From: Escherichia coli
GTDB taxonomy: Bacteria; Pseudomonadota; Gammaproteobacteria; Enterobacterales; Enterobacteriaceae
DNA: 64,000 nt
NCBI RefSeq assembly: GCF_050320075.1
Contig: NZ_CP190018.1
Direction: 5' to 3' (one strand)
A model generated the notes under the pieces. It worked only from the letters and a program-made list of their open reading frames with translations. It was not told the DNA's origin and did no database searches. The position numbers and the translations under genes were made by a program. Below are positions 20,006-37,279 of this stretch, one piece after another. Within the stretch, counting starts at the first letter, position 1. Each line of letters starts with the position of its first letter.

Positions 20006-20077
20006 TCTGCAATGCGTCGTGTTGTTGTCCGGTGTACGTCACAATTTTCTTAACCTGAAGTGACGAGGAGCCGGAAA

Positions 20078-20812
20078 ATGTCTGACAACACCATCCCTGA
20101 ATATCTGCAACCCGCACTGGCACAACTGGAAAAGGCCAGAGCCGCCCACCTTGAGAACGCCCGCCTGATGGATGAGACCGTCACGGCCATTGAACGGGCA
20201 GAGCAGGAAAAAAATGCGCTGGCGCAGGCCGACGGAAACGACGCTGACGACTGGCGCACGGCCTTTCGTGCAGCCGGTGGTGTCCTGAGCGATGAGCTGA
20301 AACAGCGCCACATTGAGCGCGTGGCACGCCGGGAGCTGGTACAGGAATATGACAATCTGGCCGTGGTGCTGAATTTTGAACGTGAACGCCTGAAAGGGGC
20401 GTGTGACAGCACGGCCACCGCCTACCGGAAGGCACATCATCACCTTCTGAGTCTGTATGCAGAGAATGAGCTGGAACACGCCCTGAATGAAACCTGTGAG
20501 GCGCTTGTCCGGGCAATGCATCTGAGTATCCTGGTACAGGAAAATCCGCTCGCCAACACCACCGGCCATCAGGGCTACGTCGCACCCGATAAAGCTGTCA
20601 TGCAGCAGGTGAAATCATCGCTGGAACAGAAAATTAAACAGATGCAAATCAGCCTCAGCGGTGAGCCGGTTCTCCGGCTGGCAGGACTGTCAGCGGCAAC
20701 ACTCCCGCACATGGATTATGAGGTGGCAGGCACACCGGCACAGCGCAAGGTGTGGCAGGACAAAATAGACCAGCAGGGAGCAGAGCTTAAGGCCAGAGGG
20801 CTGCTGTCATGA
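20078..20812 (+). CDS. sid: Sid-like capsid size determination (external scaffold) protein, 244 aa
   Basis: Starts MSDNTIPEYLQPALAQLEKARAAHLENARLMDE; 244 aa from the ATG at 20078 (RBS GAGGAG) equals P4 Sid as recalled; followed by delta and psu. The ORF-track start at 20060 is six codons too far upstream. Confidence 0.75.
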   Translation: MSDNTIPEYLQPALAQLEKARAAHLENARLMDETVTAIERAEQEKNALAQADGNDADDWRTAFRAAGGVLSDELKQRHIERVARRELVQEYDNLAVVLNFERERLKGACDSTATAYRKAHHHLLSLYAENELEHALNETCEALVRAMHLSILVQENPLANTTGHQGYVAPDKAVMQQVKSSLEQKIKQMQISLSGEPVLRLAGLSAATLPHMDYEVAGTPAQRKVWQDKIDQQGAELKARGLLS

Positions 20813-21054
20813 TGCGCTGCCCTTTCTGTCGTCATTCAGCGCATACCCGCACCAGCCGGTATGTGAGTGACAATGTCAAAGAAAGTTATCTGCAGTGCCA
20901 GAATATTTACTGTTCGGCGACATTTAAAACGCATGAGTCAATTTGTGCCGTGATTCGTTCTCCGGTCACGGAGGAAAAACCAGCACCGGCAAGCACAGCA
21001 CCGGCTGTTGTCCGAAAAGTTAAAGGCTGTTACAGCTCACCATTCAACCATTAA
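20809..21054 (+). CDS. Ogr/Delta-family zinc-finger late-gene transcription activator (81 aa, single domain)
   Basis: C-X2-C-X22-C-X4-C pattern (CPFC ... CQNIYC); start overlaps the sid stop (ATGA). Confidence 0.75.
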   Translation: MMRCPFCRHSAHTRTSRYVSDNVKESYLQCQNIYCSATFKTHESICAVIRSPVTEEKPAPASTAPAVVRKVKGCYSSPFNH

Positions 21055-21068
21055 TCAGGAGACGGGGT

Positions 21069-21641
21069 GTGACCACAATGTCATTACAGCAGGCTTTTGA
21101 GGTCTGCCAGAATAACAAAGCGGCATGGCTGCAACGCAAAAATGAGCTGGCTGCAGCCGAACAGGAATATCTGCGGCTTCTGTCCGGGGAAGGCAGAAAC
21201 GTCAGCCGCCTGGACGAATTACGCAATATTATCGAAGTCAGAAAATGGCAGGTGAATCAGGCCGCCGGTCGTTATATTCGTTCGCATGAAGCCGTTCAGC
21301 ACATCAGCATCCGCGAGCGGCTGAATGATTTTATGCAGCAGCACGGCACAGCACTGGCGGCCGCACTGGCACCGGAGCTGATGGGCTACAGTGAGCTGAC
21401 GGCCATTGCCCGAAACTGTGCCATACAGCGTGCCACAGATGCCCTGCGTGAAGCCCTTCTGTCCTGGCTTGCGAAGGGGGAAAAAATTAATTATTCCGCG
21501 CAGGATAGCGACATTTTAACGACCATCGGATTCAGGCCTGACGCGGCTTCGGTGGATGACAACCGTGAAAAATTCACCCCTGCGCAGAACATGATTTTTT
21601 CGCGTAAAAGTGCGCAACTGGCATCACGTCAGTCTGTGTAA
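21069..21641 (+). CDS. psu: Psu-like protein (polarity suppression / capsid decoration), 190 aa
   Basis: 190 aa as for P4 Psu; sequence (QQAFEVCQNNKAAWLQRKNELAAAEQEYLRLLSGEGRNVSRLDELRN) matches my recollection of Psu; last gene of the sid-delta-psu block. Confidence 0.75.
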   Translation: MTTMSLQQAFEVCQNNKAAWLQRKNELAAAEQEYLRLLSGEGRNVSRLDELRNIIEVRKWQVNQAAGRYIRSHEAVQHISIRERLNDFMQQHGTALAAALAPELMGYSELTAIARNCAIQRATDALREALLSWLAKGEKINYSAQDSDILTTIGFRPDAASVDDNREKFTPAQNMIFSRKSAQLASRQSV

Positions 21642-21805
21642 AATTCCCCGAAAATCCGCCCGTTTTTACTGAAAAAAGCCATGCATCGATAAGGTGCATG
21701 GCTTTGCATGCGTTTTCCTGCCTCATTTTCTGCAGACCGCGCCATTCCCGGCGCGGTCTGAGCGTGTCAGTGCAACTGCATTAAAACCGCCCCGCAAAGC
21801 GGGCG

Positions 21806-21824
21806 GGCGAGGCGGGGAAAGCAC
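21806..21824. other. P2/P4-type cos site (19-nt cohesive-end sequence GGCGAGGCGGGGAAAGCAC)
   Basis: Exact match to the P2-type cohesive end as recalled, immediately downstream of psu and preceded by GC-rich hairpins. Confidence 0.7.
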
Positions 21825-21842: not shown

Positions 21843-24563
21843 TTATTTGTAATTATTTATTATCTCTTCAATCTTCAAAAGTGCTTGTGAGAAATCACTT
21901 AATTTCCGTGTGTTGACTATATAGCGTAATAAACCTCTGATTGTCTCTGCTTCTGAGTTAAATCTAAATCCTTTATAGTTTTCAACAAGCTTGGATACTT
22001 TCTCAGGAAGATTGTCATAGCTGTCTGAAATCTCTGATGCTAATAAAAATAATTCAAATTTAATCTTTCTTTCTTCATTGAAATCAGTTGTGGAAATATT
22101 TTTGATAAATGATTTTATTTTATCTCTATTCTTTTCTGTTGATATTCTGTACAGATCATATAGTATTGTTTCAGCAGCTCTTGCTTTATCTGTATTCGGA
22201 TAAGAACTAATTTCATGAAGTAATTTATCGACCTTGCTGTCGTCTTCTATATTAACGCCCAGTTTTTTGGCTACTGAAAAAATATTAGCAAGGCCTCTAT
22301 TGACTATAGCTATCACCTCATACCTACCAAGGTTTCTACTTATTAACTTATCGAGAATCGTGTATATTAAAGTTTTTATGCTGTCAGTGGATAAAGTTTC
22401 ACTGTGGGTGTTGTACCTTATAACGACATATTCGGAAATAGCATCATAGAATGCTAGGTTGTGGTATGAGGACTTTAAAGTGTCGTTTAATGTTTTTAAT
22501 ACTACCGCGTCTTGCTCTGTGGTTATTTTCATTAAAGATAGTAGTTTTAATGCGTTGATTAACTTTCCTTCTATAGGGTTGAGAAACGTAGCGAACTTGC
22601 TATATGACTTCGCTAGGTTTTGCAGTACAGTATTTATTAACCAATCTAATTCTTTGGGTTGAACAGACAGCGATAATAGTTTTTTATCTTCTTTCCTTAG
22701 TATAAGAGATAGGGTTTTATTATCAATGTATTTAATGCATGAATATAATTCTAATCTTGTTAGAGAAATCTCGTCTTTATCAGAATCCTTGATTATTTTT
22801 ATTTCAATGAATTTGCGAATCACATCCTTGAATTCTTTATAAACATCAATTAAACATCCATTTTTTACAACAAAAATTATAAGGTTTTCGAAAAGAAATT
22901 CCGTTTTATGAAGATCCCCGTCAACTAATAACTTTGTATTTCTTTTTCTTATATCGCTATACTTTGTTAATAATGAGCTAACGGTGTAGTGAAGATTTAA
23001 TAAATAATTAAAGGTTACTAAATCATAGATTACGGAGACGGTTTTTTTTATATTTCTCGGTAAGTTATCATATAATTCATGAATTTTATTCTCCTCAAGA
23101 GTTGAGTATCTTTCTCTATTAATTGAAAAATCATACTTCAATCTATTCAAAATAATATTTTGATTGAAAAGCGATATGAGAATATTTGCATAGTCCTTTT
23201 GTCTGATCTCTTCTGATAATTCCTCCTCTATAATACTGTAAGCCTCATCGTATTTATTTAACTGGAAGCAATTATATTTCTTAGTCTTGTCTATACTATT
23301 TGCAACCTTATGGGGGCGTGTATAGGTAACTATTTCGTTATAGTTGAAATTAATTTCCTTATCTATTTTAATTAATGAATCATTTGGTAGCACTTCAGTA
23401 ATCAGTAGCACTTCATCATGTTTATCGTTTAAAACAATACCATATATACTTGCTTTTTTTAATATAAAAAATAATTTTTGGAGATGCGGCTTATAGTCTT
23501 TAACTTTTTTATCATTACTGAGTATACTCAAAAACTTCTTATAAAATCCTCTTAGCTCTATATTATTATCATTAGAGGTTACTTCGGTGTCATAAAATTG
23601 CAATAAAGCTTTTGGTCCATTGTCATCAATATACATTAAACCGCAATTAGTGAAACATCTGGTAACTTGTTCAGCAAGTATTGCATTTAACGATTGAAGA
23701 GATCTCACTCTTGAATAAATAGCATTAATTATTTCGATATCATCTAAGTCTGCACATAGTTCTAGGCTATTTAGGCTATGCAGGAAAGTATATAACTTGT
23801 TTGAATATGAATTGTTATTGAAAGGTTTGATTGTTTCATCGGTTAAAATAATAGTGGTTATACCATGACTTTCAAGATATTTTCTTTGAGCAGGAATATC
23901 TTCGAATACTACTAAATACATAGGGGGTCTAACAGATGAATGATTCTGAGTCCATTTAATTATTTGCTTTAGATCTATATCATTATATGAATACCCCAAA
24001 AATAGCACAGTATGGGTGGAAATAACACTTTTAACATAATTTTCAATTAAGGGAAAATTGAAGCTATAATTTAAGTAATCATCTTCTTTAAAGACGATGT
24101 TGTGATTTTTAAAATCACCATGCATTTTTATCAATTTTTTGCCAAGGTAAGATTTCATCAAATCTTTGTCACTGCTTATTATATTATAAAAGTAAGATTT
24201 GGCATTTATAGCTGCTTCAAGCAAAGTGTCCCAATTCGTTGTGATAACAGAGTGAGGATTCAGTTTAAATATTAGATCGTGAATCTTTGAATGGGGAACA
24301 TTTTCAGGAAAGAAATCTTTGATTCTTTTGTAGTAAAGATGCTCACCAAATGTGAGGTAATAAAGCTGTGCTATTTTTAAATAATCTGATTCATCTTTGA
24401 TATTGAGATCTGAAATGAGAGTGTCAATTAAGTCCCCCCATGAAGGCATTTTGATAGTTTTTGTTTCAGAGGATTTTGAAACACCAGCCCCTACAAAAAT
24501 AGCTAAAGACTCCTCATCTTTTGCTCTTAAAATACTAGCTATATGTTTGTTTAGCAAATCCAT
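21843..24563 (-). CDS. Cargo gene in the satellite cos-int slot: 906-aa protein with N-terminal SIR2-like domain and long helical C-terminal region; candidate antiphage NAD+-depleting defence protein (DSR-like)
   Basis: N-terminal motifs FVGAGVS, VITTNWD, KMHGDF, LFLGYSYNDIDL resemble SIR2_2-type domains; the remaining ~650 aa are low-complexity helical repeats. Strongly AT-rich relative to the prophage backbone. Sits between cos and int. Confidence 0.55.
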   Translation of the reverse strand: MDLLNKHIASILRAKDEESLAIFVGAGVSKSSETKTIKMPSWGDLIDTLISDLNIKDESDYLKIAQLYYLTFGEHLYYKRIKDFFPENVPHSKIHDLIFKLNPHSVITTNWDTLLEAAINAKSYFYNIISSDKDLMKSYLGKKLIKMHGDFKNHNIVFKEDDYLNYSFNFPLIENYVKSVISTHTVLFLGYSYNDIDLKQIIKWTQNHSSVRPPMYLVVFEDIPAQRKYLESHGITTIILTDETIKPFNNNSYSNKLYTFLHSLNSLELCADLDDIEIINAIYSRVRSLQSLNAILAEQVTRCFTNCGLMYIDDNGPKALLQFYDTEVTSNDNNIELRGFYKKFLSILSNDKKVKDYKPHLQKLFFILKKASIYGIVLNDKHDEVLLITEVLPNDSLIKIDKEINFNYNEIVTYTRPHKVANSIDKTKKYNCFQLNKYDEAYSIIEEELSEEIRQKDYANILISLFNQNIILNRLKYDFSINRERYSTLEENKIHELYDNLPRNIKKTVSVIYDLVTFNYLLNLHYTVSSLLTKYSDIRKRNTKLLVDGDLHKTEFLFENLIIFVVKNGCLIDVYKEFKDVIRKFIEIKIIKDSDKDEISLTRLELYSCIKYIDNKTLSLILRKEDKKLLSLSVQPKELDWLINTVLQNLAKSYSKFATFLNPIEGKLINALKLLSLMKITTEQDAVVLKTLNDTLKSSYHNLAFYDAISEYVVIRYNTHSETLSTDSIKTLIYTILDKLISRNLGRYEVIAIVNRGLANIFSVAKKLGVNIEDDSKVDKLLHEISSYPNTDKARAAETILYDLYRISTEKNRDKIKSFIKNISTTDFNEERKIKFELFLLASEISDSYDNLPEKVSKLVENYKGFRFNSEAETIRGLLRYIVNTRKLSDFSQALLKIEEIINNYK

Positions 24564-24575
24564 TGTATATACCTC

Positions 24576-25739
24576 TCAATATAATTTATCTGAATACCAT
24601 TGCATCATTTTTTTTCTATGTTCAAGATATTGAGCATGATTGTAAGTCCCTCGGATTCTGTTTTTATCAACATGTGCCAATTGTATTTCAATCCATGCGC
24701 TATCAAACCCTTGTTCGTGCAATATTGTCGACATGGTATGCCGAAAACCGTGACCTGTAGCACGGCCTTTGTAGCCAATTAACTCAATCACTTGTGAAAC
24801 ACTTTCTTTTGAGATTGGCTTGCTGCGGTTGTTCCTGCCAATAAAGATGTAAGGGTAATGGCCGGTAATAGGTTTGAGCTGTTTGAAAAGGTCAACTACC
24901 TGAGTAGATAAAGGAACAATGTGAGGTCTACGCATTTTCATACGTTCCGCTGGTATCTCCCATATACCTTTTTCGAGGTCTACTTCTTCCCACGTAGCAA
25001 AGCGCATCTCCTGCGTTCTTACACCAGTCAGCATGACTATCTTCGTAGCATTTTTGGTGATGATGCTACCGGTATACGCTTCAAGATCTCGAATAAAATG
25101 AGGCAACTCTTCAGCGGATAAAAATGGATGGTGTTTTTGCTTGGGAACGGCCAGAGCGATAGCTAAATCAGGTGCAGGATTGTACTCAGCACGGCCAGTT
25201 ATGATTGCATAGCGATAAACCTCACCGCATCTTTGACGCACCTTGCGTGTTTTCTCTAGTGCTCCACGTTTTTCGATTCGTCGTAATACTTCAAGCAGTT
25301 CTAATGGTTTGATTTCACTGATAGGACGTTTACCAATGAACGGGAAGACATCTTGCTCGAATGTCTTAATGATTTCTTCTCGATAGGCCACAGTCCAGCG
25401 GTCAGCTTTGTTGGTATGCCATTCTCGACATATTGCTTCGAAAGAATTTTCTGTTGATAGCTTTTGGGCGAGTCTTAAAGCTTTGCGTTCCTCTACCGGG
25501 TCAATGCCATTAGCAACCTGCTTACGGGCGATATCACGCTTCTCACGTGCTTCTGCGAGGCTTACTAAATCGTAGCTGCCAAATGACATTAACCGCGCTT
25601 TCCCTGCAAACCGGAAACGGAAACGCCAGCCTTTCGAGCCATCGGGATTGATAAGCAATGACAGACCTTGTCCATCGTTCAATGTGTATGGCTTGTCTTG
25701 TGGTTTTGCACGTTTGATCTGTATATCGGTGAGAGCCAT
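24576..25739 (-). CDS. int: P4-family tyrosine integrase (387 aa)
   Basis: N-terminal MALTDIQIKRAKP...GKARLMSFGSYDLVSLAEAREKR and C-terminal catalytic region (HGFRHTMSTILHEQG ... RGTYNH); adjacent to the tRNA target. Confidence 0.9.
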   Translation of the reverse strand: MALTDIQIKRAKPQDKPYTLNDGQGLSLLINPDGSKGWRFRFRFAGKARLMSFGSYDLVSLAEAREKRDIARKQVANGIDPVEERKALRLAQKLSTENSFEAICREWHTNKADRWTVAYREEIIKTFEQDVFPFIGKRPISEIKPLELLEVLRRIEKRGALEKTRKVRQRCGEVYRYAIITGRAEYNPAPDLAIALAVPKQKHHPFLSAEELPHFIRDLEAYTGSIITKNATKIVMLTGVRTQEMRFATWEEVDLEKGIWEIPAERMKMRRPHIVPLSTQVVDLFKQLKPITGHYPYIFIGRNNRSKPISKESVSQVIELIGYKGRATGHGFRHTMSTILHEQGFDSAWIEIQLAHVDKNRIRGTYNHAQYLEHRKKMMQWYSDKLY

Positions 25740-25901
25740 GTGTATAACTGAAAACTACTTATAAAAAATCTATACACATTACTATACATATTTTTCGCGG
25801 ATTTAGGGAGACGATCTCGGACTGTTACGGATAAGATGATTATTCATCATATTGAATATAAAGGGTTTTATGGATCATCTCGGAACTGGCTGGATGAAGT
25901 T

Positions 25902-25996
25902 TGGCGGAAGATCACAGGAGTCGAACCTGCCCGGGACCGCTGGCGGCCCCAACTGGATTTGAAGTCCAGCCGCCTCACCGGAGACGACGATCTTCC
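25902..25996 (-). tRNA. selC: tRNA-Sec (selenocysteine tRNA), intact, 95 nt
   Basis: Reverse complement matches my recollection of E. coli selC from GGAAGATCGTCGTCTCC... to ...GATCTTCCGCCA. Confidence 0.95.
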
Positions 25997-30044: not shown

Positions 30045-30293
30045 TAAATAATCTCACATCTGGTAATAAATATTTCTTCCATCGTATTTGCGAGCATGAT
30101 CACGATTATTCATCACGAAAATGTGATCTGTGCCGAAAAATATCTATTAACCGCCCCGTTTTGTTTTATACATGTCCGGACTACGGACAGATTTTAGTAT
30201 TGTTGTGAAATTATTCTGCTTTATATTTACCCTCAGAGATGGCAACTGAAGCTCTTCCACATGGGGCTTCTTAATCTGTGATAAGGGTAAAAA

Positions 30294-31847
30294 ATGCAAA
30301 TGATTACCTCGCGACAAAACAGATTATTACGATTCCTTTTACCACGAAGGGAATATACGACTATTGTTACGATTGCCGGCTATTTAAATGTTTCGGAAAA
30401 AACCATTCAACGTGATTTACGTTTACTTGAGCAATGGCTGGAACAATGGCGAATAACCGTTGAGAAGCGTGCTGGCGCGGGTGTGATGTTAGACTCGAAG
30501 AATATTACTGATTTGCTGCATCTTGATCATTTGTTGGGAGCAGAATGTGAAGAGATTGATGGTGTAATGAATAATGCCAGGCGCGTTAAAATAGCGTCGC
30601 AGTTATTAAGTGAAACACCGAATGAAACGTCGATCAGTAAATTGTCAGAGCGCTATTTTATCAGTGGAGCCTCTATTGTTAATGACCTGAGAGTGATTGA
30701 GTCCTGGCTTGCGCCGTTGGGGTTATCATTGATCCGCAGCCCAAGTGGTACGCATATTGAAGGTAGTGAAGGGCAAGTCCGACAGGCAATGGCATTACTG
30801 ATTAACGGCATTATTAACCATAATGAGCCGCAAGGTGTCGTGTATTCACGTCTGGATCCCGGAAGTTATAAAGCATTAGTCCATTATTTTGGAGAAGAAG
30901 AGGTGTTATTTGTCCAGTCATTGTTACTGGATATGGAAAATGAATTAAGTTGGTCTTTGGGAGAGCCTTATTACGTTAACATTTTTACTCACATCCTTAT
31001 TATGATGTATCGCAACACGCACGGGAATGCGTTATCCAGAGAAGAAGATCAAACCAGGCAATATGATGAAAATATCTTTAATGTTGCCAGTCAGATGATT
31101 CATAAGATAGAACAACGAATTGCACATACATTGCCCGATGATGAAGTCTGGTTTATTTATCAATATATCATTTCATCAGGTGTGGCGATTGATGGACAAA
31201 AAGATGTGAGCATTATTTCACATATGCAGGCCAGCAATGAAGCGCGTCTGATTACCTGGCGTTTAATTACGGTATTCAGTGACATCGTGGACTGCGATTT
31301 TAGTGAAGACAGCGCATTATATGATGGCTTGTTGGTTCATATTAAGCCGCTGATTAACCGACTAAATTATCGCATTCATATCCGTAATCCATTGCTGGAA
31401 GATATTAAAGCAGAATTAGCGGATGTCTGGCGGTTGACGCAATATGTGGTGAATCAGGTATTTAAAACCTGGGGTGAGAATGCAGTGAGCGAGGATGAAG
31501 TAGGTTACCTGACCGTTCATTTTCAGGCTGCGATGGAGCGGCAAATTGCCCGTAAACGTGTATTACTGGTCTGTTCAACCGGAATCGGAACTTCGCATCT
31601 ACTGAAAAGCCGTATTCTGCGAGCATTTCCTGAATGGACGATTGTTGATGTTATTTCAGCAGCGAATTTATCACAGGTTTTGCCTGACAATATCGAACTG
31701 ATTATTTCGACCATTAATTTGCCTACAGTCACTATGCCGGTCGCTTATGTTACCGCTTTTTTTAATGATGCCGATATTAAGCGGGTCACTGAAATGGTGA
31801 TTACGGAAAAATTACATCATGCGACATCTCGGGTCGTTGAAATTTAA
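30294..31847 (+). CDS. PRD-domain transcriptional regulator (BglG/LicR/MtlR-like: N-terminal HTH, PRD region, C-terminal EIIB-like domain)
   Basis: 517 aa; HTH (TIVTIAGYLNVSEKTIQRDLRLLEQ) and C-terminal KRVLLVCSTGIGTSHLL EIIB-like motif. Confidence 0.75.
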   Translation: MQMITSRQNRLLRFLLPRREYTTIVTIAGYLNVSEKTIQRDLRLLEQWLEQWRITVEKRAGAGVMLDSKNITDLLHLDHLLGAECEEIDGVMNNARRVKIASQLLSETPNETSISKLSERYFISGASIVNDLRVIESWLAPLGLSLIRSPSGTHIEGSEGQVRQAMALLINGIINHNEPQGVVYSRLDPGSYKALVHYFGEEEVLFVQSLLLDMENELSWSLGEPYYVNIFTHILIMMYRNTHGNALSREEDQTRQYDENIFNVASQMIHKIEQRIAHTLPDDEVWFIYQYIISSGVAIDGQKDVSIISHMQASNEARLITWRLITVFSDIVDCDFSEDSALYDGLLVHIKPLINRLNYRIHIRNPLLEDIKAELADVWRLTQYVVNQVFKTWGENAVSEDEVGYLTVHFQAAMERQIARKRVLLVCSTGIGTSHLLKSRILRAFPEWTIVDVISAANLSQVLPDNIELIISTINLPTVTMPVAYVTAFFNDADIKRVTEMVITEKLHHATSRVVEI

Positions 31848-31873
31848 TGTCAGAATTTTATGAGGTATGACGA

Positions 31874-32344
31874 ATGGACATAACAAAAATCCTGAATACG
31901 AATCGCGTTATTTTAGATATGCAAGCGACGAATAAAGCGGAGGCGATTGAAGAATTAACTAATCTTCTCAAAAAAGATGGTGCGATCGATTGTCGGGAAA
32001 CCTTTATTAAAGATGTCTGGCAGCGCGAAGCGGAAGGCTCGACTGGTTTTGAAAATCATATTGCGATCCCGCATGGTAAATCTTCTGCGGTAATTAATAC
32101 CACGCTGGCTATCGGGCGTACCCGGCAGGATATTCCCTGGGAAACACTGGATGGCAGTAGCGTACGCTGTATTATTTTATTTGCGGTACGTCTTGAAGAT
32201 CAAAATACCACTCATATCCGTTTACTTTCCCAGGTCGCGGGCGCGCTTGCAGATGATGACATCATAGCGCAATTGCTGGTTGAGACGAGCCCGCAAAAAA
32301 TCATTGATCTCTTTAGTCAGTATGCACAATCCGATGTCTACTAA
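31874..32344 (+). CDS. PTS EIIA component, fructose/mannitol (EIIA-2) family
   Basis: 156 aa; conserved HIAIPHGK histidine motif. Confidence 0.8.
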   Translation: MDITKILNTNRVILDMQATNKAEAIEELTNLLKKDGAIDCRETFIKDVWQREAEGSTGFENHIAIPHGKSSAVINTTLAIGRTRQDIPWETLDGSSVRCIILFAVRLEDQNTTHIRLLSQVAGALADDDIIAQLLVETSPQKIIDLFSQYAQSDVY

Positions 32345-32361
32345 ATAACAGGGAGTATATC

Positions 32362-32676
32362 ATGAATATTGTCTGTGTTGCCGCCTGCACGGCGGGTATT
32401 GCTCACACCTATATTGCTCGTGAAAAGTTAATTAAAGGGGCAAAAGCACTGGGCCACACCATTAAAGTTGAAACCCAGGGAACCATTGGTACAGAAAACG
32501 AATTACAGGCGGCAGAGATCTCTGCTGCTGACGTCGTGATTCTTGCTGTGGATGTGAAAATAAAAGGAGAAGAACGTTTTACCAATAAACGCATTGTGCG
32601 AGTAAAGACAGAGATCGTCATTAAATCGCCCGTTCAATTTCTTGAAAAGGTCGAAAAATCACTGGGAAATAAATGA
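32362..32676 (+). CDS. PTS EIIB component, fructose type
   Basis: 104 aa; active-site cysteine context VAACTAGIAHTYIA. Confidence 0.8.
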   Translation: MNIVCVAACTAGIAHTYIAREKLIKGAKALGHTIKVETQGTIGTENELQAAEISAADVVILAVDVKIKGEERFTNKRIVRVKTEIVIKSPVQFLEKVEKSLGNK

Positions 32677-32700
32677 TCCTTATACTGGAGGGATCTTAAT

Positions 32701-33792
32701 ATGAAAGAAAATAAAATTCCGGTTTCACAGGAAATTAAAAAACATTTATTAACCGGCATCTCGTGGATGATACCCCTTATTGTGGCCGCCGGGATATGTA
32801 TTGCGTTGGGGCAAGTTCTTGGCGGTACAGATGTTGGTGAAAAAACAGGAACAATCCCGTGGATGCTTAATCAGATTGGCGGCTGGGGAATGGGGCTGAT
32901 TGTGCCGCTGATTAGCGCGGCAATTGCCTATTCTATTGCCGATCGTCCCGGATTTGCCCCGGGCCTGATTGTCGGCTTTCTCTGTGGGCAAATCCATACC
33001 GGATTTATTGGCGGTATGTTGGGTGGTTTCCTGGTGGGCTACACCATTTTGCTACTTAAACGCTATATTCGCCTGCCGCAGTCGATGCAAGGACTCATGC
33101 CAATCATGGTGTTACCGGTATTGAGCACCATTATTGGTGGTCTGTTAATGATGACGCTGATTGGTAAACCCATCGCCTGGTTACAAGAAGCACTGATTCA
33201 TTTGCTCGAGTCGATGCAGGGCGGATCGCGCTTCCTGATGGGGGCCATACTTGGCGCGATGGCAACCTTCGATTTCGGTGGTCCGGTCAACAAAACCATG
33301 TCGCTGTTTTCCGATGGCTTGCTGGTCAGTGGCGTCTACGGACCAGAAGCCGTGAAATTTGTCGGCTCAATCATCCCTCCGTTTGGCATCACACTTTCGT
33401 TCTTACTGACACGCCATAAATACACCCGTGCGGAGCGCGAGGCGCTGAAAGCCGCGTTTCCGATGGGGATCTGCATGATCACTGAAGGAGTCATTCCGAT
33501 CGCCGCGCGTGACCTGTTGCGAGTAGTGGGATCTTGTGTGGTGGCATCGGCGGTCGCGGGCGGCTTAATCATGGTGTGGGGCGTGGAGAGTCCGGTTCCA
33601 CATGGCGGCATGTTTGTTGTGCCTCTGTTCACCCATCCTCTGCTGTTTTGCCTGGCGCTGGGTATAGGCACGGTGATTTGTGGCGTGATGCTTTCACTCT
33701 GGAAGAAACCGGTAACGGAACGCGACGAAGAGTTTGACGAACTGAGCGATCAAAAGCTGAAAGATGAAGAGATCACTTTCACCCTCGAATAA
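32701..33792 (+). CDS. PTS EIIC permease, fructose-like family
   Basis: 363 aa polytopic membrane protein directly after EIIA/EIIB. Confidence 0.8.
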   Translation: MKENKIPVSQEIKKHLLTGISWMIPLIVAAGICIALGQVLGGTDVGEKTGTIPWMLNQIGGWGMGLIVPLISAAIAYSIADRPGFAPGLIVGFLCGQIHTGFIGGMLGGFLVGYTILLLKRYIRLPQSMQGLMPIMVLPVLSTIIGGLLMMTLIGKPIAWLQEALIHLLESMQGGSRFLMGAILGAMATFDFGGPVNKTMSLFSDGLLVSGVYGPEAVKFVGSIIPPFGITLSFLLTRHKYTRAEREALKAAFPMGICMITEGVIPIAARDLLRVVGSCVVASAVAGGLIMVWGVESPVPHGGMFVVPLFTHPLLFCLALGIGTVICGVMLSLWKKPVTERDEEFDELSDQKLKDEEITFTLE

Positions 33793-33803
33793 CCGGAGGC
33801 CCT

Positions 33804-34655
33804 ATGTTTGCCGATATGAAAAGTATGGTGATGAAAGCCTGGCATGAACATTACGCCTTGCTGGCGATCAACTGTATGAATCTGGAAAGTGCTCACGCAG
33901 CTATCCGCGTGGCGGAGAAGAATCGCGCTCCGATCATTCTCAATCTCTATCAGGGGCATCTGGCGCATTTTCCTGCACCCGTCGCGGCGGCAGTGGTTAA
34001 AACGCTCGCGGAATCTGCCTCAGTACCGGTCGCTCTGGCGCTTGATCATGGCAAAAATCCGGACTGTATTCGTCAGGCGTTTCGTGCTGGTTTCAGCGGA
34101 TTAATGATTGATGCTTCTGCTTTTCCCCTGGAGGAAAACGTGCGCCAGACCAGGGCGGTGGTGGAACTCGCCGCCAGCGCGCAGCTCTGCGTGGAAGGCG
34201 AACTGGGCCATCTGGCAGATGCGCCGCGTTACGACCAGGCCGCCAATGCAGACCTGATGACGCAACCCACTGATGTGGAACCGTTTATCGCGCAGACAGG
34301 CATTGATCTACTGGCCGTCTCGGTAGGCACGGCGCACGGCATGTACGCGCCTGGTGTTGTACCTGCTATTGATTTTCAGCGTCTGGCGGAGATTTTCCAC
34401 TGCTCGAGCGTGCCTCTGGCATTACATGGCGGTAGCGGTACGCCGTTCGATCAGCTCCAGCTCTGTACGACGCTGGGGGTAGCAAAAATCAACGTGGGGG
34501 CGGCCATTTTTGAACGGGGGAAATCCGCGCTCCTGCATACCCTCTGTCACGATATATCCATTGAACTGGTGGACGCGCTGAAAGCTATGGAACTGGCCTT
34601 CGAAGAAGCGATTACACCGTATTTACAGGCGAGCGGCTCTATAGGCAAAGCCTGA
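33804..34655 (+). CDS. Class II (metal-dependent) ketose-bisphosphate aldolase family protein, paralogue 1
   Basis: 283 aa; LALDHGK and LHGGSG blocks typical of FbaA/GatY/KbaY-type aldolases. Confidence 0.75.
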   Translation: MFADMKSMVMKAWHEHYALLAINCMNLESAHAAIRVAEKNRAPIILNLYQGHLAHFPAPVAAAVVKTLAESASVPVALALDHGKNPDCIRQAFRAGFSGLMIDASAFPLEENVRQTRAVVELAASAQLCVEGELGHLADAPRYDQAANADLMTQPTDVEPFIAQTGIDLLAVSVGTAHGMYAPGVVPAIDFQRLAEIFHCSSVPLALHGGSGTPFDQLQLCTTLGVAKINVGAAIFERGKSALLHTLCHDISIELVDALKAMELAFEEAITPYLQASGSIGKA

Positions 34656-34735
34656 TTCATTTTCTGTCATGGCCTTTATGCCAGTGCAATAACGCACCGG
34701 CAGGGCGGACTACACGCTGAAACTGGAGATTTAAC

Positions 34736-35596
34736 ATGTTAGTTTCGATGAAAGAATTACTGCAACCTACCCGCCAGCACGGCTTTGCCATTGGCGCATT
34801 TAATGTGGCGGATAACTGTTTCCTTCGCGCAGTCGTGGATGAAGCAGAAGCGACAAATACTCCGACGATTATTGCCATCCATCCCAGCGAACATGATTTT
34901 GTGGGCGATGCCTTTTTCGCTCACGTTCGCGAAATTACCCAGCGTAGTCCGGTCCCGTTTGTACTGCACCTCGATCATGGTGCCTCTGTAGAGCATGTTT
35001 TGCGTGCGATTCGCTGCGGATTTACCTCAGTAATGATCGACGGTTCGCTGCTGCCGTATGAAGAAAACGTGGCGCTGACCGCAGAAGTGGTTCGCCTCGC
35101 TCACGCGGTTGGAGTGTCGGTTGAGGGTGAACTGGGAACCATCGGACAAACAGGAACGTCGGTAGAAGGTGGTGTTTCACAAGTGACCTACACAGATCCG
35201 GCGCAGGCCGCCGATTTTATTGCTCGTACAGGTGCCGACACACTGGCTGTGGCGATTGGTACAGCGCATGGCATCTATCCAAAAGGGATGCAGCCGAAGC
35301 TGCAAATGGACATTTTGCGCGACATTGCCGGGCGCATTGATATTCCATTGGTGTTGCACGGTGGTTCGGCAAATCCGGACGCGGAGATTGCTGAATCAGT
35401 TACGCTCGGCGTTGGCAAAATCAATATCTCCAGCGATATGAAATACGCCTATTTCCAGAAAGTGCGTGAAATTCTCGCCAAAGAGAGCTGGTGGGATCCG
35501 AACGTCATCTATCCGGATGCGATTAACGCGGCGCGGGAAGTCATTCGCCACAAAATGAAACTGTTCGGTTCGCTCGGTAAAGCATCACTGTACTAA
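34736..35596 (+). CDS. Class II (metal-dependent) ketose-bisphosphate aldolase family protein, paralogue 2
   Basis: 286 aa; LHLDHGAS, GELG, AIGTAHG, LVLHGGSA blocks. Confidence 0.8.
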   Translation: MLVSMKELLQPTRQHGFAIGAFNVADNCFLRAVVDEAEATNTPTIIAIHPSEHDFVGDAFFAHVREITQRSPVPFVLHLDHGASVEHVLRAIRCGFTSVMIDGSLLPYEENVALTAEVVRLAHAVGVSVEGELGTIGQTGTSVEGGVSQVTYTDPAQAADFIARTGADTLAVAIGTAHGIYPKGMQPKLQMDILRDIAGRIDIPLVLHGGSANPDAEIAESVTLGVGKINISSDMKYAYFQKVREILAKESWWDPNVIYPDAINAAREVIRHKMKLFGSLGKASLY

Positions 35597-35643
35597 GCCA
35601 GAAGGGCGGGATGACCCGCCTTTTACGCAACAAGGAACGAGAT

Positions 35644-36576
35644 ATGCACTATCTGGGGTTGGATATTGGTGGGACCAAAATCGCCGCCGTCGTCATGGAT
35701 GCGCATGGCTGGGAGATTCGCCGTTACCGCTGCCCGACGCAAAAGTCGACATATCAACAATTTGTCTCATGCGTTGTGGCGCTTATCGAGCAGATTAGGC
35801 GGGACGTTCAACGACCGATGCTGACAGGGGTCGCCTTACCCGGCAGTATCTCGCCACTCACTGGCCTGATTAAAAACGCGAATATTCAGGTGATTAACGG
35901 TCATGCGTTACAGGCTGATTTGCAGCAATTGCTTGGGCAACCGGTGGTGATAGCCAATGATGGTAACTGTTTCGCGCTATCAGAAGCTTGCGACGGTGCC
36001 GGGCAAGATTATGACGTAGTATTTGGTATTACGCTTGGTACAGGCTGCGGCGGTGGCATTGCCATCAAGCAACGACCGTTTATAGGGGCCTGGGGAAATG
36101 CTGCCGAATGCGGTCATATCACGTTGCCAGGCTATATGGAGCAGGAAGATGGTCCATCAGTCAGTTGCTATTGCGGCAAACACAACTGCGTGGAGTCGTT
36201 TGTTTCCGGCAGCGGTTTTAGTGAACGCTATCAACAGATGACTGGTAACTTGCTCACTCCTGCGGCGATTGTCACCCTGGCACAACGTGGTGATGCTTGT
36301 GCCATGCAGCAGGTGGCACGTTTTCGCCAACAGCTTGCCCGCACGCTGGCAACCATCGTTAACGTTGTTGACCCTGGCGTGATTGTCATCGGCGGCGGGC
36401 TTTCGAATGTGGAACTGCTTATCACCGATCTGAACGCAGAAGTCGCTCCACTGGTTTTCACCGATCAATTCACCACTCCCATTGTAAAAGCACAGCACGG
36501 CGACAGTAGCGGAATGCGTGGCGCTGCCTGGCTTGCTATGCGCAACGGAGAAGCCAATGAAACGTTCACAAATTAA
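35644..36576 (+). CDS. ROK-family sugar kinase
   Basis: LGLDIGGTKIA N-terminal ATP motif and ROK zinc motif CYCGKHNCVESFVSG. Start placed at MHYLGLDIGG; the ORF track starts 11 codons earlier at 35611. Confidence 0.75.
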   Translation: MHYLGLDIGGTKIAAVVMDAHGWEIRRYRCPTQKSTYQQFVSCVVALIEQIRRDVQRPMLTGVALPGSISPLTGLIKNANIQVINGHALQADLQQLLGQPVVIANDGNCFALSEACDGAGQDYDVVFGITLGTGCGGGIAIKQRPFIGAWGNAAECGHITLPGYMEQEDGPSVSCYCGKHNCVESFVSGSGFSERYQQMTGNLLTPAAIVTLAQRGDACAMQQVARFRQQLARTLATIVNVVDPGVIVIGGGLSNVELLITDLNAEVAPLVFTDQFTTPIVKAQHGDSSGMRGAAWLAMRNGEANETFTN

Positions 36577-37237
36577 TTATGTTATTGATAAAGCACATGC
36601 CATTGCGCAGACCTTCCGCGTTTGTTTGCCAGAGTTCGCCTATTTTACGGTGGATGACTGGCTGCAGCGGGAACGGGATAACTGGCAAGAAGTGGTCGAC
36701 TTACAGCTCGGTTGGGATATCACCGATTTTGGTCGTGGTGATTTCAACCAAACGGGACTAACACTGCTAACGATGCGCAACGGCGCGCTGGGGGCGGCGG
36801 CATATCCAAAACCGTATGCTGAGAAAATGTTGCAGATCCAACAAGATCAGCAGACTCCCTGGCATTTTCACACCCACAAAATGGAAGATATCCTCAATCG
36901 GGGCGGTGGAGACTTATGCATGCAGTTGGCCTGGGCCAACGAAGCCAATCTCTGTGATGATCAGCGGGTTATTACCGTGAGTGTTGATGGTCAGCGGCGT
37001 GCCGTGAAACCTGGTGAAACGCTGGTGCTAAAGCCGGGGCAGGGCATTTGCCTGCCGCCGCGTCTGTATCATCGCTTCTGGGCGGAAAAAGCGTTTGTTC
37101 TCGGCTGGGAAATTTCGATGGTAAATGATGACCAACATGATAACCATTTTCTTGAGCCGGGAGGACGTTTTCCGGCGATAGAAGAAGATGAACCGGTGAA
37201 ATGGTTATTGTGTAGTGAGTATGCTGTTTTGCGGTAA
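36557..37237 (+). CDS. Cupin-type sugar isomerase-like protein (D-lyxose/mannose ketol-isomerase-like), tentative
   Basis: About 226 aa from MKRSQINYV; His-rich WHFHTHKMEDI metal-site-like motif. Start overlaps the ROK kinase 3' end by 20 nt. Family call is tentative. Confidence 0.45.
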   Translation: MKRSQINYVIDKAHAIAQTFRVCLPEFAYFTVDDWLQRERDNWQEVVDLQLGWDITDFGRGDFNQTGLTLLTMRNGALGAAAYPKPYAEKMLQIQQDQQTPWHFHTHKMEDILNRGGGDLCMQLAWANEANLCDDQRVITVSVDGQRRAVKPGETLVLKPGQGICLPPRLYHRFWAEKAFVLGWEISMVNDDQHDNHFLEPGGRFPAIEEDEPVKWLLCSEYAVLR

Positions 37238-37279
37238 TAGCGGGGACGCTAACGTTGATATCCGTTAGCGCCCGCGTAT

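What the first reader, a model, noticed from the sequence alone, without database searches (positions are those of the whole stretch)
21843..24563. Candidate single-gene antiphage system: 906-aa SIR2-domain protein in the satellite cos-int hotspot
The only gene between cos and int (where P4 itself carries non-essential genes and where P4-like satellites are known to hold variable defence cargo) encodes a 906-aa protein. Its first ~250 aa carry SIR2-like motifs (FVGAGVS, VITTNWD, KMHGDF, LFLGYSYNDIDL) with the Asn/His pair expected for NAD+ hydrolysis. The remaining ~650 aa are helical repeats with no motif I recognise, plausibly a sensor domain. This architecture resembles defence-associated sirtuins (DSR-type) that abort infection by NAD+ depletion, but the protein is shorter than the DSR2 I recall and the C-terminal region may define a new specificity or subfamily.
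Basis: partly seen in the sequence, partly recalled or inferred. Interest (0 to 1): 0.85.

Follow-up and report, generated by a model that had tools for sequence, protein, structure and literature searches.

The report
DSR2-like antiphage sirtuin on P4 satellite
The single gene between the cos site and the integrase of a P4-like phage satellite encodes a full-length relative of DSR2, a bacterial defence enzyme that destroys NAD+ when it detects a phage protein. The call is correct, but the slot, the gene and the protein family were already catalogued.

Summary
Window 21843-24563 (-) is an intact 906-aa ORF with 29.9% GC in a ~50-57% GC background. It is the only gene between the exact P4/P2 cos 19-mer (21806-21824) and a tyrosine integrase (24576-25739). 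The ~11.3-kb P4-like satellite that carries it is integrated at tRNA-Sec.

The N-terminus is a SIR2_2 domain. It keeps the four B. subtilis DSR2 catalytic residues: S29, N110, D112 and H148. N110 and H148 are invariant in 78 homologues.

The "unrecognisable" C-terminus is recognisable. A family profile aligns in one stretch to DSR2 residues 24-866 (E 4e-88). An AlphaFold model (pLDDT 90.5) matches DSR2 cryo-EM chains over the full length (TM 0.71-0.72). So this is a DSR2-type single-protein system, and most likely an abortive-infection NADase triggered through its C-terminal sensor.

It is about 100 aa shorter than B. subtilis DSR2 and only 18-19% identical overall. Its trigger is unknown.

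It is not new as a candidate. Rousset et al. 2022 list this protein (WP_000365012) as P4-hotspot system #9, "SIR2_2, likely a NADase", with 115 loci. They did not test it.

Verdict: a real, correctly interpreted and untested member of a known kind. Interest is modest.

The parts
21843..24563 (-). DSR2-like gene, 906 aa plus stop; identical to E. coli SMS-3-5 WP_000365012.1
   Evidence: ORF. 100% nt identity to NC_010498.1, annotated 'SIR2 family protein', and present in 31 of 5426 complete E. coli genomes. Full-length fold match to DSR2.
23694..24563 (-). SIR2 NADase effector domain, about aa 1-290; catalytic S29, N110, D112, H148
   Evidence: Pfam SIR2_2 E 1.6e-23. phmmer to DSR2 aa 34-325 at E 8.7e-38. 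Residue mapping and conservation.
23010..23693 (-). MID region, about aa 291-518: mixed alpha/beta linker plus helical bundle. Boundaries are approximate, taken from the profile alignment to DSR2 299-547.
   Evidence: Profile alignment. A C-terminal-only profile still finds DSR2 363-741. Secondary structure of the model.
21846..23009 (-). C-terminal alpha-solenoid (HEAT-like) putative sensor domain, about aa 519-906; about 70 aa shorter than DSR2 CTD 548-1005
   Evidence: AF2 model helices 519-905. Foldseek full-length match. Lowest conservation, 19-25%. dN/dS 0.10 against 0.04 in SIR2.
21806..21824 (+). cos cohesive-end 19-mer of P2/P4
   Evidence: One exact match in the window, 0 of 100 shuffles.
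21787..21806 (-). Terminator-like GC hairpin followed by a T-run, downstream of the gene and next to cos
   Evidence: Consensus scan only.
24576..25739 (-). Tyrosine integrase, 387 aa. Its stop codon lies 12 nt before the DSR2-like ATG and overlaps that gene's GAGAGG ribosome-binding site.
   Evidence: The junction is conserved in relatives.
25902..25996 (-). tRNA-Sec (selC), the integration site; att core repeat at 25900-25922
   Evidence: ARAGORN, Rfam, direct repeat.
14641..14663 (.). Distal att core repeat TTTGGCGGAAGATCACAGGAGTC; it sets the element length at about 11.26 kb
   Evidence: Direct repeat family D2.
20060..21641 (+). sid (20060-20812), delta (20809-21054) and psu (21069-21641): P4 late genes on the other side of cos
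18924..19011 (-). C4 antisense (P4 CI-type immunity) RNA
   Evidence: Rfam RF01695, 76 bits.
15140..17473 (-). alpha primase-helicase of the satellite, 777 aa

Best explanation
The gene encodes a DSR2-type defence-associated sirtuin. It is one polypeptide with three parts: an N-terminal SIR2 NAD+ hydrolase (aa ~1-290), a middle adaptor (aa ~291-518) and a C-terminal alpha-solenoid sensor (aa ~519-906). It is carried as the sole cargo of the psu/cos-int hotspot of a P4-like satellite integrated at selC.

By analogy with B. subtilis DSR2, the protein would sit in the cell as an inactive oligomer. Binding of a newly made phage structural protein to the sensor would then change the conformation passed through the middle domain and switch on the SIR2 site. 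DSR2 senses monomeric tail tube protein. NAD+ would be hydrolysed to ADP-ribose and nicotinamide, NAD+ would collapse, and the infection would abort. This would protect the clonal population and the resident satellite.

Shown here: the fold, the domain order, the catalytic residues, the single-gene layout, the mobile-element location and purifying selection.

Inferred: NADase activity, oligomeric state, abortive infection, the identity of the trigger, and co-transcription with int.
For: 1. SIR2 domain. Pfam SIR2_2 matches at E 1.6e-23. The best solved relatives are DSR2 chains at E 8.7e-38.

2. Catalytic residues. DSR2 S51, N133, D135 and H171 (PMC11850899) map to S29, N110, D112 and H148. N110 and H148 are invariant in 78 homologues of 23-49% identity, and S29 and D112 are kept in at least 76 of 78.

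3. C-terminal homology. The family profile aligns to DSR2 24-866 in one stretch at E 4.3e-88. A profile of aa 300-906 alone, built without the ~1000-aa sequences, still hits DSR2 363-741 at E 8.8e-7. None of 200 shuffled decoys scored.

4. Fold. The AF2 model has pLDDT 90.5 and pTM 0.85. The top 46 Foldseek PDB hits are all DSR2 chains, the best at E 6.5e-26 with TM 0.71-0.72 over about 1000 columns.

5. Effector conserved, sensor variable. Mean identity is 46% in SIR2 against 19-25% elsewhere. dN/dS is 0.04 in SIR2 and 0.10 in the CTD, so both parts are under purifying selection.

6. No partner gene here or in relatives.

7. Location. The gene lies in the P4 psu-int hotspot, where 7 of 19 tested cassettes protected against phage (PMC9122126). 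Relatives lie on satellite-sized and prophage-sized IMG/VR contigs.

8. The DSR2 mechanism comes from Garb et al. and the cryo-EM papers.
Against: No experiment exists for this protein or its ~900-aa clade.

Overall identity to DSR2 is only 18-19%, and the CTD is about 70 aa shorter.

One of the two residues needed for DSR2 tetramerisation is not conserved: Y71 aligns to N54, while D188 aligns to D161.

The PADLOC Dsr2 model does not match the protein. That model does not match B. subtilis DSR2 either.

Another single-gene SIR2 from the same hotspot (system #39, plasmid pFR88) was cloned by Rousset et al. It is not among the seven cassettes reported to protect against their eight phages. A SIR2 cargo gene therefore does not guarantee a visible phenotype.

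Nothing here identifies the trigger.
Confidence: 0.8

Rival explanations
1. It is a DSR2-fold NADase defence protein, but it senses something other than a tail tube protein, for example a capsid, portal or non-structural phage protein. It may also be tuned not to fire on the helper phage P2 that the satellite needs.
For: The sensor region is the least conserved part of the family at 19-25% identity. It is shorter than in DSR2. Next to integrases that are 95% and 87% identical to this one, the DSR2-like alleles are only 82% and 49% identical, which is consistent with changing specificity. In the related DSR1 family the sensor recognises major capsid protein (PMC12803255), so SIR2 effectors are coupled to different triggers.
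Against: The only characterised protein with this fold senses tail tube protein. The model keeps short beta strands in the MID and CTD, and DSR2 uses strands of this kind to pair with the tube protein. No direct evidence favours either trigger.
Confidence: 0.4
2. It is a satellite-serving factor rather than host defence. In this reading the NADase manipulates the helper P2 or host metabolism during satellite induction, or it stabilises the satellite as an addiction module.
For: The gene abuts int with no room for a promoter of its own. Its expression may therefore follow the satellite's integration and excision programme. The same int-gene junction is kept in three satellite lineages.
Against: Homologues occur as stand-alone chromosomal genes without any satellite. 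In one Salmonella genome the gene sits in a satellite lacking psu, delta and sid (L010). The fold family is a proven anti-phage system. No antitoxin-like partner is present.
Confidence: 0.07
3. It is a protein-modifying sirtuin (a deacylase or ADP-ribosyltransferase acting on a phage or host target) rather than a bulk NAD+ depleter.
For: The SIR2 superfamily includes deacylases and ADP-ribosyltransferases. Catalytic Asn and His are shared by all of these chemistries.
Against: Only SIR2_2 (PF13289) matches, not the canonical SIR2 family. The first 269 residues contain no cysteine, so there is no Zn-binding Cys4 module. The nearest solved relatives (DSR2, KomC, ThsA) are all NADases.
Confidence: 0.05

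Closest known systems
B. subtilis 29R DSR2 (Garb et al. 2022; PDB 8WKT, 8K98, 8WY8, 8YG1 and others)
   Same: Same three-part architecture on one polypeptide: SIR2, MID and HEAT-like CTD. Same catalytic Ser/Asn/Asp/His. A full-length fold match at TM ~0.7, and profile homology over DSR2 24-866. Single-gene system.
   Different: 906 aa against 1005 aa: about 21 aa fewer at the N-terminus, several loops missing and about 70 aa less CTD. Identity is 18-19% overall and ~35% in SIR2. Tetramer-interface residue Y71 is not kept. The host is a Gram-negative enterobacterium and the carrier is a P4-like satellite. Trigger, inhibitor sensitivity (DSAD1) and activity are all untested.
P4 hotspot system #9, 'SIR2_2, likely a NADase' (Rousset et al. 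2022, Table S1; Domainator 2024, Table 2, cluster 12)
   Same: It is the same protein. Accession WP_000365012 is listed in Table S1, and the system #9 representative has a near-identical sequence. It lies in the same psu-int locus.
   Different: Those papers give only the Pfam domain and a guessed activity. They report no assignment to the DSR2 fold and no experiment on this system.
Thoeris ThsA (PDB 6LHX, 7UXT, 8BTO)
   Same: Closely related SIR2_2 NADase domain. The best PADLOC hits are ThsA models.
   Different: Only the SIR2 half of the ThsA profiles matches (positions 9-213 of 478). There is no SLOG domain and no ThsB/TIR neighbour.
DSR1 (E. coli WP_029488749.1; Gao 2020; PMC12803255)
   Same: [quoted passage not shown] It defends by acting on NAD+.
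   Different: The DSR1 sensor is a bilobed TPR domain shared with Avs7, and it recognises major capsid protein. The PADLOC Dsr1 models do not match this protein, and its fold matches DSR2 instead.
Avs5 (SIR2-STAND) and SIR2-HerA
   Same: SIR2 NADase effector; both also occur in P4/P2 hotspots.
   Different: No NTPase domain or Walker A motif and no HerA partner gene.

Membership tests
DSR2 (B. subtilis type) | N-terminal SIR2 domain with catalytic S51/N133/D135/H171 equivalents | tested here: met
   S29, N110, D112 and H148. N110 and H148 are invariant in 78 homologues.
DSR2 (B. subtilis type) | MID adaptor plus alpha-solenoid/HEAT-like CTD following SIR2 on the same chain, homologous over the full length | tested here: met
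   Profile aligns to DSR2 24-866 at E 4e-88. The C-terminal-only control gives E 8.8e-7 with 0 of 200 shuffles scoring. AF2 plus Foldseek give TM 0.71-0.72.
DSR2 (B. subtilis type) | Stand-alone single-gene system | tested here: met
   There is no other ORF between cos and int. Relatives are single genes in satellites and in chromosomes.
DSR2 (B. subtilis type) | Head-to-head tetramer through SIR2-SIR2 contacts (Y71/D188 with T257/R233) | not testable with these tools
   No multimer prediction is available. D188 aligns to D161 (D in 56 of 78 homologues), but Y71 aligns to N54.
DSR2 (B. subtilis type) | NADase switched on by phage tail tube protein; abortive infection | not testable with these tools
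   Requires infection, NAD+ and co-expression assays.
DSR2 as modelled in PADLOC-DB v2 (PDLC02184, 1222 positions) | Match to the Dsr2 HMM | tested here: inconclusive
   No match at E<=1. B. subtilis DSR2 residues 24-866 do not match it either, while one family member (P0133) matches only in the SIR2 part. The model is therefore not diagnostic for this fold family.
DSR1 | Avs7-like TPR sensor; match to PADLOC Dsr1 models | tested here: not met
   No Dsr1 hit at E<=1. All top fold matches are DSR2.
Thoeris ThsA | C-terminal SLOG domain and an adjacent ThsB (TIR) gene | tested here: not met
   Only profile positions 9-213 of 478 match. The neighbours are int and psu.
Avs5 / SIR2-STAND | Central STAND NTPase domain (Walker A/B) | tested here: not met
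   No NTPase Pfam hit and no Walker A motif.
SIR2-HerA | Adjacent HerA-like ATPase gene | tested here: not met
   No such neighbour.
Canonical sirtuin deacylases | Pfam SIR2 (PF02146) match and a Zn-binding Cys4 module | tested here: not met
   Only SIR2_2 matches. The first cysteine is residue 270.
Cargo of the P4-like satellite psu-int (cos-proximal) hotspot | Lies between psu/cos and int of a P4-like element bounded by att repeats | tested here: met
   cos; psu, delta and sid; int; att repeats; C4 RNA. The protein is listed in Rousset Table S1.

The most novel reading that the evidence does not exclude
The ~900-aa enterobacterial clade carried next to the selC-type integrase may be a distinct DSR2 subtype. 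Its shortened, fast-diverging sensor would recognise a different phage protein than the Bacillus tail tube, and would be selected to spare the P2-type helper while blocking competing phages. Its expression would be coupled to the integrase transcript. That would make it a tractable E. coli model for how satellites tune a helper-compatible abortive-infection sensor.
Probability: 0.3. Interest if true: 0.5.

Novelty: new member of a known kind. Interest (0 to 1): 0.3.

Why it matters
If the gene is active, E. coli and Salmonella would gain a native DSR2-type system. The 82%-identical Salmonella orthologue is indexed in more than 5000 blocks of the collection. Trigger recognition, escape and anti-defence could then be studied with the coliphage toolbox. 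It would also fill in one of the ten most common, still untested cargo types of the P4 hotspot.

As it stands, the finding mainly confirms existing catalogues. It adds a firm structural assignment: a protein annotated only as "SIR2 family protein" has the DSR2 fold.

Tried and rejected
- PADLOC gave only ThsA, PDC-S25 and PDC-S65 hits on the SIR2 part and no Dsr model. I checked whether that argues against DSR2. It does not, because B. subtilis DSR2 itself misses the PADLOC Dsr2 model.
- NCBIfam gave only a spurious sub-threshold hit: ActJ, 14.9 bits against a cut-off of 150.
- PHROGs gave only a SIR2-domain family of unknown function.
- Single-sequence phmmer against the PDB stopped at residue 295. 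A family profile was needed to reach the MID and CTD.
- A literature search for the accession found nothing in main texts. It was found only in a supplementary table.
- Searches for an E. coli or satellite DSR2 homologue that had been tested found none.
- I considered that the SIR2 tested by Rousset (pFR88) might be this protein. It is a different sequence, system #39.
- I assumed the window was strain SMS-3-5. It is not: the gene is 100% identical and the satellite 99.7%, but the backbone is only 97-98.6% identical.
- The Thoeris, Avs5, SIR2-HerA, DSR1 and canonical-sirtuin readings were rejected on defining features (see the membership tests).
Full report
**Observation.** Window 21843-24563 (- strand) is a single ATG-initiated ORF of 906 codons. 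Its GC content is 29.9%, and the local profile falls to 28-31% against 50-57% in the flanks. At that composition about 8% of random codons are stops, so an open frame of this length has a chance of roughly 1e-33 (my arithmetic).

The gene is 100% identical to E. coli SMS-3-5 WP_000365012.1, annotated "SIR2 family protein". It occurs at 99% identity or more, and at full length, in 31 of 5426 complete E. coli genomes, always on the chromosome. The window itself comes from another strain. It is colinear with SMS-3-5 at 97-98.6% identity in most of the backbone and 99.7% in the satellite.

**Context.** The P2/P4 cohesive-end 19-mer occurs once in the window, at 21806-21824, which is 18 nt past the stop codon.
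- On the far side of cos lie psu, delta and sid.
- Further on are a C4 antisense immunity RNA with isrK and the alpha primase at 15140-17473.
- Upstream of the ORF, a tyrosine integrase ends 12 nt before the ATG. Its TGA overlaps a GAGAGG ribosome-binding site.
- tRNA-Sec follows at 25902-25996.
- A 23-nt direct repeat of the tRNA 3' end, at 14641-14663 and 25900-25922, bounds an element of about 11.26 kb, which is P4-sized.

The gene is therefore the only cargo between cos and int of a P4-like satellite at selC. This is the hotspot defined by Rousset et al. (PMC9122126).

**What the protein is.** Pfam finds SIR2_2 at aa 105-238 (E 1.6e-23) and nothing else. Against solved structures, the single sequence matches B. 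subtilis DSR2 over aa 12-295 (E 8.7e-38). The NADases KomC and ThsA score lower.

The DSR2 catalytic residues S51, N133, D135 and H171 (PMC11850899) correspond to S29, N110, D112 and H148.

An exhaustive search of 1.84 billion cluster representatives returned 4405 relatives at E 1e-3 or better. Dozens are full-length proteins of about 870-980 aa at 28-49% identity, and proteins of about 990-1020 aa appear lower in the list. In a 78-sequence alignment N110 and H148 are invariant, and S29 and D112 are nearly so.

The profile of that alignment aligns to DSR2 residues 24-866 in one stretch (E 4.3e-88). As a control I rebuilt a profile from aa 300-906 only, leaving out the five ~1000-aa sequences. 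It still finds DSR2 363-741 at E 8.8e-7 for a PDB-sized search, and none of 200 shuffled decoys scored.

An AlphaFold2 model built from the alignment is confident (pLDDT 90.5, pTM 0.85). Its top 46 Foldseek hits in the PDB are all DSR2 chains. The best have E 6.5e-26 and TM 0.71-0.72 over about 1000 aligned columns at 18-19% identity.

**Rejected alternatives.**
- No Walker A motif or NTPase domain, so it is not Avs5.
- No SLOG domain or TIR neighbour, so it is not Thoeris.
- No HerA neighbour.
- No Dsr1 model hit.
- No Zn-binding cysteines in the SIR2 part, so it is not a canonical deacylase.

**Selection and evolution.** Against the 82%-identical Salmonella orthologue, dN/dS is 0.06 overall, 0.04 in SIR2 and 0.10 in the CTD. 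Mean identity across the family is 46% in SIR2 and 19-25% in the rest. This is the usual pattern of a conserved effector with a variable sensor.

The Salmonella orthologue sits in the same yicJ-selC-int-gene-psu arrangement and is very common. A 49%-identical homologue follows an 87%-identical integrase in another P4-like satellite. A 43%-identical homologue lies at the yicJ locus without any satellite, and a 32%-identical one is a lone chromosomal gene.

Relatives are also found on satellite-sized (10.8-13 kb) and prophage-sized (40-62 kb) IMG/VR contigs.

In all three satellite lineages the gene starts at or inside the end of int. No promoter-like site was found in between. Co-transcription with int is likely but is an inference.

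**Mechanism.** By homology with DSR2 (Garb et al.; cryo-EM work), the most likely mechanism runs as follows. An inactive oligomer carries a C-terminal sensor that binds a newly synthesised phage structural protein. The MID relays the resulting change to the SIR2 site. NAD+ is then hydrolysed until the infected cell can no longer support phage growth.

The fold, the residues and the layout are shown here. The activity, the oligomeric state and the trigger are inferred.

Cautions:
- Overall identity to DSR2 is low.
- The CTD is about 70 aa shorter.
- One tetramer-interface residue (DSR2 Y71) is not conserved.
- A different single-gene SIR2 from the same hotspot (system #39, pFR88) is not among the seven cassettes that protected in Rousset's eight-phage assay.

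**Novelty.** The identical protein is listed in Rousset et al. Table S1 as SIR2_2. Domainator lists the same system as "Sir2-like (Likely a NADase)". Neither paper tested it or assigned it to DSR2, and I found no paper that does.

PADLOC would not call it, but its Dsr2 model also misses B. subtilis DSR2.

The finding is therefore a correct reading of a known candidate: an untested, divergent member of the DSR2 kind on a known defence hotspot.

Noticed in passing
window 14792-14913 and 14973-15094: Two 122-nt direct repeats, 81% identical and 181 nt apart start to start, lie just inside the distal att site downstream of the alpha primase gene. TGTTCACC/GGTGAACA octamers occur within them. From memory this resembles the P4 crr (cis replication region); it was not compared with P4 itself.
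   Followed up: partly
window 18924-19200 (- strand): Rfam finds a C4 antisense RNA (the P4 CI-type immunity RNA), its a1/b1 target and isrK. The satellite's immunity region therefore looks intact.
   Followed up: no
L002 16743-18266, L004 10109-11632, L008 from 16345, L010 13004-14611: Related selC-type satellites carry a second cargo gene after the primase. One lineage has another SIR2_2 protein of 507 aa, and Salmonella has a 535-aa reverse-transcriptase/TIR fusion. In this window the same position holds only a rhuM fragment, by annotation transfer from SMS-3-5 (about 14422-14583).
   Followed up: no
window 24576-25739 compared with L008 and L002: The integrase is 95% and 87% identical between lineages in which the adjacent DSR2-like protein is only 82% and 49% identical. 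Sid is 26-28% identical. Either the cargo and late genes diverge much faster than int, or they are exchanged by recombination.
   Followed up: partly
PADLOC-DB v2 model PDLC02184 (Dsr2): Residues 24-866 of the structurally characterised B. subtilis DSR2 do not match the PADLOC Dsr2 HMM at E<=0.001. The name 'DSR2' therefore covers sequence families that this library does not unite.
   Followed up: partly
window about 1-10300: A low-GC (38-41%) island next to the selC region encodes type III secretion translocon, tip and chaperone proteins, the regulator EilA and the adhesin Air/EaeX, by colinearity with SMS-3-5. Part of it (7564-10318) is only 90% identical to SMS-3-5, against 97-98% elsewhere.
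   Followed up: no
window about 30290-37240: Between yicI and yicH lies a sugar-utilisation cluster: a BglG-type antiterminator, PTS IIA/IIB/IIC, two aldolases, a ROK kinase and a lyxose/mannose isomerase. It is annotated in SMS-3-5 and is probably strain-variable. It was not examined.
   Followed up: no
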